Of a stretch of 2,424 nucleotides of DNA, positions 284 to 2,424 are shown one piece after another. The DNA comes from Naegleria gruberi. Its lineage: Eukaryota. Where the stretch lies: assembly GCA_000004985.1 (NCBI GenBank), contig GG739263.1; one strand, given 5' to 3'. The notes under the pieces are model-generated. The model searched no databases and was not told the DNA's origin. It saw only the letters and a program-made list of their open reading frames with translations. Both the position numbers and the translations under genes were made by a program. The stretch's first letter is position 1; every line of letters starts with the position of its first letter.

Positions 284-285
284 TA
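284..285. repeat. TA, putative target-site duplication (left copy)
   Basis: The dinucleotide ta lies immediately outside the CAGT terminus (..gattatTA|CAGTCTG..). Confidence 0.45.
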
Positions 286-323
286 CAGTCTGTTTCATCC
301 AATGCTGAACGCAAAAAAATGAA
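286..323 (+). repeat. Left terminal inverted repeat of the element
   Basis: Read directly from the sequence; see the alignment described for the mobile element. Confidence 0.7.
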
Positions 324-978
324 GTTTTTCAAACTTTTAGTCAGGAATGGCAGTTTTCTGATCGATTGGCCTTTGTTAGGAAGGGAAAACCACTTGAATA
401 CCTTCAGATTCTAATAAAAAAGTTGTGTTTCTAATTGAAAAACAAGAACATCAGTCCAAAAATCAAAAAACTTGTTTTCTCTCTTCACATGTCTCGTCAC
501 ACGCCAATGCTAGCCGTTAAATTTCAAACTCAAAAAAAATAAAGCAATGGTTAGTAGCAAAACCGTTCACTCAAAACTAACTTTTCGACTTGTAGATTTT
601 TTCATAATTTTCTGTCAGTGACATGTACTATAGAGAACCATCACCACCCAAGCAAAGGAAGTACTCTGCTACACTCTACATATCATGTATCTTTTAAAAG
701 CACATCTGTTTCATAGACCTTTTGTCTGTCAGCCACATGATAAACAGCCCAACATCATCAGTTCGGCTCCCTAACACAACAATATTCCAAATAAGCATCA
801 ATTCAAATTGAATAAAATAAATAAATTCTTTATTAAAACAGTCTGCTTCATTGATCAATCAGTGCAGTATAAACACAGGCATTCCACTCATTACAACTGC
901 TAAATCCTTAAAGGCTCTCTAAACCAAAATGAGAGACAGTTGAAAAACTTTGCTGTTACCAAAAAAAACTTGCAAAAT

Positions 979-1361: not shown

Positions 1362-1529
1362 ACTGTACAGAACAACAATTTTCAATGTTCAAGTATAGAA
1401 CTTTTGCTCACATCAAACTGGCTCGCTACTTGAACTCAATTCCAATTTGTGCGACTTTAGAGCGGAGCTCAACTCGAGATTAAATCCAGACACATTGAGC
1501 TTGTAGTTTTCACTACCCTAAGAGTGGAT

Positions 1530-1586
1530 GTAGTTGGTGGTGTAGCCGGTAGCCGGTTACAGCCGGATGGTAGTGCGGGTAGTCGG
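1530..1586. repeat. GC-rich degenerate short tandem repeat (about six GTAG-Y-(N)-GG units) forming a GC island in AT-rich DNA
   Basis: Units: gtagttgg (1530..1537), gtagccgg (1542..1549), tagccgg (1550..1556), cagccgg (1560..1566), gtagtgcgg (1570..1578), gtagtcgg (1579..1586). There are four CCGG and several CGG within ~45 nt. No start-to-stop ORF covers the island on either strand. Confidence 0.45.
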
Positions 1587-1635
1587 AAGCTGTTGAATAC
1601 ACCTTCAAAGCCAAAAATTAATAAAAGTTCTATTT

Positions 1636-2088
1636 TTAAAATTTAACTTTATGGAAATTCATGAAAAACGAGTATTGGTTGAACATTTCTTTGCCAGCAA
1701 TATTATGAATCAAACATTTACCAATTATTTGATTTACTGCAACATAGCCTGTTGTTACATGAATGTTTGAATCAATTAATCTATATCCAATAATTGGATG
1801 AACCGAAGAGAGACACTTTTTGATGTTGGTGAAATATACTTTTTGCTCTTTAACCTCAACAAATTGACCAACAAGTAAGGAACCATCCTTTGCCTTAAAT
1901 AAAATAAATTCTTTGTTTTGTACAATTGGAATCCATTTCTTGTTTTCAGATTGATTTCTTACCCAAGGATAATTGATGTTAATTTGTCTTTGAAGTTTTT
2001 CAAAATTCGCTCCTCGTTGTTCTAAATTTTTGTGATTGGAAGAGTCATTAAATTGTTTGAAAACTTTGTGTTTCAATTCAAAAAGCAA
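1636..2088 (-). CDS. C-terminal segment (150 codons) of the same uncharacterised protein; it has no ATG start of its own
   Basis: Open frame of 150 codons ending at TAA (plus 1633..1635). The 'M' in the ORF track is a TTG (plus 2086..2088 = caa), which is a start only under the bacterial translation table. There is no in-frame ATG until ~20 codons from the end (..AGKEMFNQ..). The frame opens just after a TGA at 2104..2106 and overlaps the end of the upstream ORF by 16 nt. Codon bias matches the upstream ORF. The most economical reading is that it continues that ORF. Confidence 0.5.
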   Translation of the reverse strand: MLFELKHKVFKQFNDSSNHKNLEQRGANFEKLQRQININYPWVRNQSENKKWIPIVQNKEFILFKAKDGSLLVGQFVEVKEQKVYFTNIKKCLSSVHPIIGYRLIDSNIHVTTGYVAVNQIIGKCLIHNIAGKEMFNQYSFFMNFHKVKF

Positions 2089-2420
2089 TGCCCAGAAGAA
2101 CCTTCAAAAATATGAGAATTCCAATGAAAATTAGGATTTGTAAAATTACCATTACCATATAGGGAAATGACTTGTTTCCTGAAATTGAAATGTTTCAATT
2201 TTGCAATTTCAATGTTTGAAGGTGAAACCAAATCTTGAATCAAAGAAAGTACGTATTCTACGTGATTTGACCAACATATAATATGTTTCTTCTTCAAACT
2301 GAATGAAACATCACAGTGATTCTTATTATTAATAAGAAAATCATAGATAATTGGGCAACTAAAAACCACGAATTCCAAAAAATGATCTGCTGAACAATCA
2401 TTGTAATCTTTTGCAATCAT
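2073..2420 (-). CDS. N-terminal segment (115 codons) of an uncharacterised protein; may be 5'-incomplete at the window edge
   Basis: ATG at 2420..2418 in an A-rich context (gaaaATGatt). The frame stays open in the single additional codon visible before the window ends at 2424, so the true start could lie outside. It runs 115 sense codons to a TGA (plus 2073..2075) in ~68% AT sequence, where a stop is expected roughly every 12 codons. Codon usage is biased (AAT, AAA, ATT, TTT, TTG, GGT) and matches the downstream ORF. I recognise no domain or family from the translation. Confidence 0.5.
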   Translation of the reverse strand: MIAKDYNDCSADHFLEFVVFSCPIIYDFLINNKNHCDVSFSLKKKHIICWSNHVEYVLSLIQDLVSPSNIEIAKLKHFNFRKQVISLYGNGNFTNPNFHWNSHIFEGSSGHCFLN

Positions 2421-2424
2421 TTTC

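What the first reader, a model, noticed from the sequence alone, without database searches (positions are those of the whole stretch)
2073..2106. Two-ORF gene is most simply one gene broken by a 1-nt indel in an A5/T5 homopolymer
The downstream ORF (1636..2088) has no ATG; its annotated start is TTG, an artefact of bacterial-table ORF calling. It opens immediately after a stop in its own frame and overlaps the ATG-initiated upstream ORF by 16 nt in a frame offset by one. Inserting one T in the minus-strand T5 run (plus A5 at 2080..2084) makes ..GHCF-F-ELKHKVFKQ.. continuous, giving a ~261-codon protein. Homopolymers are the classic site for sequencing indels and for polymerase slippage, so this is either an assembly error or a very recent inactivating mutation. 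The high coding signal in both halves (348 and 453 nt without a stop in ~68% AT DNA) argues against an old pseudogene.
Basis: seen in the sequence. Interest (0 to 1): 0.5.

Follow-up and report, generated by a model that had tools for sequence, protein, structure and literature searches.

The report
Transposase gene copy broken by 25-base deletion
The two overlapping reading frames are the tail end of one copy of a repeated Naegleria gruberi transposase gene that has lost 25 bases (not one base in an A-run), which makes it an ordinary defective transposon copy.

Summary
On the minus strand, ORF 2073..2420 and ORF 1636..2088 overlap by 16 nt in frames offset by one, and they belong to one gene. 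The proposed lesion is wrong.

Four near-identical Naegleria gruberi paralogues (NAEGRDRAFT_65790, 51042, 71659, 76741) read ...NFHWNSHIFE-DCLKWGNA-RFFWALLFELKHK... The window matches the first of them at 107/107 residues in the upstream frame, ending at E (2105..2103). It matches 154/155 in the downstream frame, starting at R (2103..2101). Eight codons plus one base, 25 nt in all, are therefore missing at about 2103.

That peptide is identical in all paralogues and in N. lovaniensis. The deleted segment holds one of only two residues invariant across 52 family members, the Gly of an H-x3-H...G-P-P...W...E-x-K-H motif.

The gene is not about 261 codons long. It runs off the window end, the ATG at 2420 is an internal Met, and relatives are 740-930 aa. 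Profile comparison places the family with Transposase_21 / Plavaka (CACTA/En-Spm-type) transposases. This is an ordinary, recently inactivated transposon copy, or less likely an assembly artefact. Interest is low.

The parts
2103..2424 (-). Upstream coding segment (frame A). It encodes K..NFHWNSHIFE, which corresponds to residues 376-482 of N. gruberi XP_002679140 (P0002) and 472-578 of P0152. It runs off the window end, so the gene's 5' two-thirds lie outside the window. The ATG at 2420..2418 is an internal Met.
   Evidence: 107/107 identical to P0002; tblastn, P0152 472-578 to window 2423..2103, 99%.
2101..2105 (-). Deletion junction. GAA (E, 2105..2103) and AGG (R, 2103..2101) share base 2103. 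The 24 nt encoding DCLKWGNA plus one flanking base (25 nt) are absent. The exact breakpoint is ambiguous within about 3 nt.
   Evidence: tblastx against N. lovaniensis: query 2-322 then 322-531, subject 5133-5453 then 5478-5687; paralogue sequences.
1636..2103 (-). Downstream coding segment (frame B), RFFWALLFELKHK...HKVKF plus the TAA stop. It corresponds to residues 491-645 of P0002. The TTG at 2088..2086 is an ordinary internal Leu codon, not a start.
   Evidence: 154/155 identical to P0002; P0152 587-741 to window 2103..1639, 98%.
2073..2102 (-). Out-of-frame tail that a ribosome coming from frame A would read after the deletion: GSSGHCFLN, then the TGA stop at 2075..2073.
   Evidence: This peptide has no counterpart in any homologue.
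2080..2084 (.). It lies inside codons L-F-E of the conserved RFFWALLFELK peptide and is not the lesion.
1503..1590 (-). Candidate 3' end of the transposon (tentative). The only CACTA in the window (CACTACCCTAAG, 1511..) lies 125 nt past the stop codon. It sits beside a G+C-richer cluster that holds 6 of the window's 7 GTAG[CT] motifs.

Best explanation
Window 1636..2424 (minus strand) is the 3' third of one copy of a multi-copy DNA-transposon transposase gene of Naegleria gruberi. The family is related to Transposase_21 / Plavaka, that is, the CACTA/En-Spm type of the CMC superfamily.

This copy has lost 25 nt at about 2103. The loss removes eight codons (DCLKWGNA), including the family-invariant Gly of an H-x3-H...G-P-P...W...E-x-K-H motif, and shifts the frame by one. 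Translation coming from upstream would read nine wrong residues (GSSGHCFLN) and stop at 2075..2073, dropping the last 163 residues of the intact protein (the 8 deleted plus the final 155). The copy therefore cannot make full-length transposase.

Shown here:
- the position and size of the gap relative to the intact paralogues;
- near-identity on both sides of the gap;
- conservation of the deleted motif;
- family placement.

Inferred:
- the deletion is real rather than an assembly artefact;
- it arose by microhomology-mediated deletion or abortive gap repair, as is usual for defective DNA-transposon copies;
- the copy could still be moved in trans if its ends are intact.
For: -: the only word-index hit is the N. 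lovaniensis protein P0001 (308 aa, 39% identity, 98% coverage). It reads HIFE-DCLEWGSP-RFFWALLFELKHK.
- tblastx puts the frame switch at minus-strand position 322 (plus-strand 2103), with a 24-nt gap in the subject and a 1-nt overlap in the query.
- the N. lovaniensis gene is a single continuous ORF.
- a profile search finds 160 relatives, many of them 830-930 aa with the match in their C-terminal third.
- P0002, P0151, P0152 and P0153 are four N. gruberi NEG-M proteins in one 90%-identity cluster.
- all four read HIFEDCLKWGNARFFWALLFELKHK. The window is 107/107 and 154/155 identical to P0002 on the two sides of the gap.
- the spacing of the motif is constant in 42 of 44 family members found by pattern.
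- G584 (inside the deleted segment) and E595 are the only invariant columns among 52 members.
- the metagenomic relative L002 carries an uninterrupted 863-codon ORF through the motif.
- 9 of 52 relatives match Pfam Transposase_21 (best 2.9e-17), 3 match Plavaka and 2 match DUF4218, the last on the same region as ours.
- hhalign of the Naegleria-type group against the Pfam-positive members gives probability 100, E 5e-51, over 445 columns (P0152 122-615).
- the N. lovaniensis genome paper (PMC6125883) lists CMC-EnSpm repeats in Naegleria and gives N. gruberi a G+C content of 35%. The window is about 32%.
Against: - No DNA of the intact N. gruberi copies could be retrieved. The 25-nt figure therefore rests on protein alignments plus the divergent N. 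lovaniensis DNA, and the exact breakpoint and any microhomology are unknown.
- No reads were available, so an assembly artefact cannot be excluded.
- Neither the window protein nor its close paralogues hit Transposase_21 directly in Pfam. The family assignment is by transitive and profile-profile evidence.
- The transposon ends were not identified.
Confidence: 0.83

Rival explanations
1. One reading: a 1-nt loss in the minus-strand T5 run (plus-strand A5, 2080..2084) broke a ~261-codon gene, and restoring one T gives ..GHCF-F-ELKHK..
For: Mechanically it restores a single ORF, and homopolymers are common indel sites.
Against: The 9 codons upstream of that run, read in the downstream frame (RFFWALLFE, 2103..2077), are identical to all four N. 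gruberi paralogues and to N. lovaniensis. The frame-A reading GSSGHCF matches nothing. Eight conserved residues, including the invariant Gly, would still be missing. The gene also extends beyond the window.
Confidence: 0.02
2. The 25-nt gap is not biological. It is an assembly or consensus artefact in a low-coverage, repeat-derived piece of the N. gruberi assembly, and the real locus is intact.
For: The element is multi-copy and nearly identical between copies, a situation prone to mis-assembly. The window may be a small repeat-derived scaffold. No read data were available.
Against: A clean 25-nt loss is not a typical base-calling or homopolymer error. The copy also carries a private substitution (V where all four paralogues have L), which suggests a distinct genomic copy rather than a collapsed consensus.
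Confidence: 0.12
3. The frames are joined in the mRNA by a cryptic 38-nt GT..AG intron (2101..2064, length 3n+2), giving ..NSHIFE-VFKQFNDSS..
For: The sequence shows GT at 2101..2100 and AG at 2065..2064, and removing those 38 nt restores the downstream frame (read).
Against: This would delete RFFWALLFELKHK, which is coding and identical in the intact paralogues, together with the invariant W and E. The homologues are continuous ORFs here. From memory, not tested here: 38 nt is very short for a Naegleria intron. A GT..AG pair at this distance is easily a chance occurrence.
Confidence: 0.02
4. A programmed -1 ribosomal frameshift in the overlap joins the two frames.
For: The required shift is -1, and there is a U-rich stretch (C UUU UUG) at 2085..2079.
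Against: Intact paralogues and all relatives encode this region in a single frame, so no frameshift is conserved. There is no canonical X XXY YYZ heptamer. The product would lack the invariant motif.
Confidence: 0.01

Closest known systems
N. gruberi NEG-M predicted proteins NAEGRDRAFT_65790 (XP_002679140), _51042 (XP_002674278), _71659 (XP_002673243), _76741 (XP_002668347)
   Same: They are 98-100% identical to both window frames over 262 residues and belong to the same repeated gene family.
   Different: All four encode DCLKWGNA between HIFE and RFFW in one frame, whereas the window copy lacks these 8 codons plus 1 nt. The window has V where they all have L at one position.
N. lovaniensis C9374_012352 (P0001) and its locus L001
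   Same: A homologue with 39% identity across the whole window-encoded part. It is continuous through the junction (HIFE-DCLEWGSP-RFFW).
   Different: It comes from a different species and is divergent. Its annotated protein is itself only the C-terminal ORF of a larger locus split over several frames.
CACTA / En-Spm (CMC superfamily) transposases: Pfam Transposase_21 (PF02992) with DUF4218 (PF13960); fungal Plavaka (PF18759)
   Same: Profile-profile homology covers 445 columns, including the catalytic core, with members that pass the Transposase_21 threshold. The window's motif region coincides with the weak DUF4218 match in P0061 and P0011. CMC-EnSpm repeats are reported in Naegleria (PMC6125883).
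   Different: The Naegleria proteins do not hit these Pfam models directly. They carry N-terminal C2H2-type fingers. CACTA termini and a 3-bp target duplication were not demonstrated.
Internally deleted, non-autonomous derivatives of DNA transposons (for example dSpm, Ds, and the KP P element); comparison from general knowledge
   Same: This is a near-identical copy of an autonomous-type element carrying an internal deletion that destroys the transposase ORF.
   Different: Only 25 nt are missing. Whether the ends are intact, and whether the copy is mobilised in trans, is unknown.

Membership tests
N. gruberi NAEGRDRAFT_65790-type repeated gene family | At least 90% protein identity to the cluster members over the aligned region | tested here: met
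   107/107 and 154/155 identical to P0002; 99% and 98% to P0152 by tblastn.
N. gruberi NAEGRDRAFT_65790-type repeated gene family | Single continuous reading frame through the HIFE-DCLKWGNA-RFFW motif | tested here: not met
   Eight codons plus 1 nt are absent at about 2103 and the frames are offset by one. This is a defective copy.
CACTA/En-Spm-type transposase (Pfam Transposase_21 / Plavaka) | Direct match to PF02992 or PF18759 above the gathering score | tested here: not met
   There is no hit for the repaired window protein or for paralogues P0152 and P0154, even at E<=10. The catalytic region lies outside the window in any case.
CACTA/En-Spm-type transposase (Pfam Transposase_21 / Plavaka) | Homology of the whole core to proteins that do pass the Pfam thresholds | tested here: met
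   hhalign gives probability 100, E 5e-51, 445 columns, P0152 122-615 against P0061 123-593. P0061 and P0095 pass Transposase_21 and P0033 passes Plavaka. 9 of 52 relatives match Transposase_21.
CACTA/En-Spm-type transposase (Pfam Transposase_21 / Plavaka) | C-terminal DUF4218-like region | tested here: inconclusive
   DUF4218 hits on the equivalent region are below the cut-off: P0061 residues 516-597 (E 0.0033), P0011 residues 708-757 (E 0.014), and 2 of 52 at E<=1e-3.
CACTA/En-Spm-type transposase (Pfam Transposase_21 / Plavaka) | CACTA-type terminal inverted repeats, subterminal repeats and a 3-bp target duplication | tested here: inconclusive
   CACTAC at 1511 lies 125 nt past the stop, with a cluster of GTAG[CT] motifs beside it. 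The 5' end is outside the window, and no other copy's DNA was available. L002 gave no clear inverted repeats.
CACTA/En-Spm-type transposase (Pfam Transposase_21 / Plavaka) | Acidic catalytic triad (DDE/D) | not testable with these tools
   The catalytic region lies upstream of the window. It was seen only in the paralogue alignments and was not analysed residue by residue.
Programmed ribosomal frameshift site | Two-frame arrangement conserved among homologues, with a slippery heptamer | tested here: not met
   All homologues are single-frame here, and there is no X XXY YYZ heptamer in the overlap.
   The repair gives GSSGHCFFELK, whereas the homologues read DCLKWGNARFFWALLFELK.

The most novel reading that the evidence does not exclude
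The deletion allele is real and expressed. Its product keeps the DNA-binding and catalytic regions but lacks the C-terminal 163 residues, and it acts as a trans-dominant inhibitor of the intact copies, in the way the KP repressor does for P elements. A milder version is that this copy is a snapshot of the first step in the birth of a non-autonomous element by abortive gap repair.
Probability: 0.04. Interest if true: 0.3.

Novelty: new member of a known kind. Interest (0 to 1): 0.1.

Why it matters
The result matters mainly for annotation.

- It shows that the two bacterial-style ORF calls are a single eukaryotic transposase fragment.
- It corrects the lesion to a 25-nt deletion at about 2103.
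- It shows that the gene is cut by the window end.
- It links a set of Naegleria "predicted proteins" with no Pfam hit to the Transposase_21 / Plavaka (CACTA-type) transposases. That is useful for repeat masking and gene counts in Naegleria genomes.

It opens no new biological question.

Tried and rejected
- Direct family scans gave nothing significant. These covered the repaired protein, the N. lovaniensis ORFs and the full-length paralogues, against Pfam and NCBIfam. The only hit for the repaired protein was LOC400499 at E 0.049, which I dismissed.
- PDB sequence searches with profiles A1 and A2 found nothing.
- Rfam and tRNA scans of the window found nothing.
- Exact-protein look-ups meant to fetch DNA failed for the window ORFs and for P0002, P0152, P0153 and P0151. 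P0005's contig was listed but had no DNA.
- A gapped DNA pattern across the junction found nothing in metagenome contigs.
- A search for terminal inverted repeats in the relative L002 was swamped by AT-rich noise.
- The first word-index protein search missed the 99%-identical N. gruberi paralogues that the exhaustive search later found. Absence in that index is therefore not evidence of absence.
- I rejected the homopolymer indel, a programmed frameshift and a cryptic 38-nt intron; see the rival explanations.
- I did not predict a structure. It would not change the verdict, and alignment rows were restricted.

Full report
**Observation.**

The window is about 32% G+C. On the minus strand it carries an ATG ORF at 2420..2073 (115 aa) and a TTG-called ORF at 2088..1636 (150 aa). 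They overlap by 16 nt in frames offset by one. The plus-strand A5 run is at 2080..2084, and adding one T there does fuse the frames into 261 codons.

The downstream frame is in fact open from AGG at 2103..2101, directly after its in-frame TGA at 2106..2104. Open runs of this length are very unlikely by chance at this composition, about 8e-5 and 3e-6.

**Where the frame really breaks.**

The repaired protein found one homologue in the word-index search: Naegleria lovaniensis C9374_012352 (P0001, 308 aa, 39% identity, 98% coverage). Its alignment reads NFHWIAHIFE-DCLEWGSP-RFFWALLFELKHKEFKQFNDSSNHKN.

In the window, NFHWNSHIFE is in the upstream frame and ends with GAA at 2105..2103. RFFWALLFELKHKVFKQFNDSSNHKN is in the downstream frame and starts with AGG at 2103..2101. 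tblastx against the N. lovaniensis locus L001 shows the same picture: two HSPs meet at minus-strand position 322 (plus-strand 2103), with a 24-nt gap in the subject and a 1-nt overlap in the query.

An exhaustive profile search then found 160 relatives. The best is P0002, which is N. gruberi NEG-M NAEGRDRAFT_65790. Three cluster-mates from the same genome are P0151, P0152 and P0153. All four read HIFEDCLKWGNARFFWALLFELKHK.

The window is 107/107 identical to P0002 residues 376-482 in frame A and 154/155 identical to residues 491-645 in frame B. tblastn of P0152 gives 472-578 to window 2423..2103 and 587-741 to window 2103..1639. The window copy therefore lacks exactly residues DCLKWGNA plus one base, 25 nt in all, at about 2103.

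**What was lost.**

A pattern scan of the family shows a motif with constant spacing in 42 of 44 members: H-x3-H-x3-[DE]-x4-[FWY]-G-P-P-x3-[FYW]-W-x3-[FY]-E-x-[KR]-H. In a 52-sequence alignment the only invariant columns are G584 and E595 of P0152, and G584 lies inside the deleted octapeptide.

After the deletion, frame A reads GSSGHCFLN and stops at 2075..2073. That drops the last 163 residues of the intact protein: the 8 deleted plus the final 155.

**What the gene is.**

Frame A is open to the window end, with a K before the M. The homologues continue upstream (P0002 ..GKPLKMIAKDYN..). The ATG at 2420 is therefore an internal Met, and the gene is cut by the window.

Relatives are 741-930 aa, with our region forming the C-terminal third. 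A metagenomic relative, L002, has an uninterrupted 863-codon ORF.

Pfam does not recognise the close family directly. Among 52 relatives of 480 aa or more, however, 9 match Transposase_21 (best 2.9e-17), 3 match Plavaka, 4 match DUF1258 and 2 match DUF4218. The weak DUF4218 matches lie on the region equivalent to the window's motif (P0061 516-597, P0011 708-757).

hhalign of a Naegleria-type full-length group against the Pfam-positive members gives probability 100, E 5e-51, over 445 columns (P0152 122-615 against P0061 123-593). That span includes the catalytic core, which played no part in how those proteins were found.

The N. lovaniensis genome paper lists CMC-EnSpm repeats in that genome and gives N. 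gruberi 35% G+C and 784 scaffolds (PMC6125883). I conclude that the window holds the 3' end of a CACTA/En-Spm-like (CMC) transposase gene from a multi-copy N. gruberi element.

**Mechanism and rivals.**

The best explanation is a real, recent 25-nt internal deletion in one copy. It is recent because 261 of 262 flanking residues equal those of an intact paralogue, and it is a distinct copy because of a private V-for-L change. The likely cause is microhomology-mediated deletion or abortive gap repair, but that is inference. The breakpoint is ambiguous within GAAGG.

An assembly artefact cannot be excluded without reads (about 0.12).

The sequence also offers a 38-nt GT..AG interval (2101..2064) whose removal would restore the frame. 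It would delete the conserved RFFWALLFELKHK, so I reject it. A programmed frameshift is rejected because every homologue is single-frame here.

**Limits.**

I could not fetch DNA of the intact N. gruberi copies. The 25-nt figure therefore rests on protein alignments and the divergent N. lovaniensis DNA. The transposon ends are not established.

**Verdict.**

This is an ordinary defective transposon copy.

Noticed in passing
window 284-338 and 964-1018: A 55-nt inverted repeat, 89% complementary, brackets 625 nt. Both arms begin TACAGTCTGTTTCATCC. It looks like a 735-bp MITE-like insertion, possibly with a TA target duplication. No coding potential is evident inside it.
   Followed up: partly
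window 1503-1590: The only CACTA in the window (CACTACCCTAAG at 1511) lies 125 nt past the transposase stop. Next to it is a G+C-richer tract holding 6 of the window's 7 GTAG[CT] motifs and all 3 CCGG sites. This may be the 3' terminus and subterminal repeats of the element.
   Followed up: partly
L001 3272-3336 and 6113-6177 (N. lovaniensis PYSW02000058.1): A perfect 65-nt direct repeat, spaced 2841 nt apart, brackets the whole transposase-like locus. This is far longer than the 3-bp target duplication expected for CACTA elements. Its origin is unexplained.
   Followed up: no
L001 3356-5927: The N. lovaniensis homologous locus is split into four same-strand ORFs in different frames: 3356-3700 with a weak C2H2 finger, then 3687-4484, 4520-4936 and 4938-5927. 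They are annotated as three separate genes. It may itself be a decayed or intron-bearing transposase gene, or carry long-read indel errors.
   Followed up: partly
N. gruberi paralogues P0002 (645 aa), P0151 (385), P0152 (741), P0153 (245): The annotated lengths of the near-identical N. gruberi copies differ widely, and all are shorter than the 860-930 aa of intact relatives. This suggests further truncated copies or incomplete gene models in that assembly.
   Followed up: no
tool behaviour: The word-index protein search returned only the 39%-identical N. lovaniensis protein. It missed four 98-100%-identical N. gruberi proteins that are in the same collection, so negative results from that index should not be read as absence.
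   Followed up: yes
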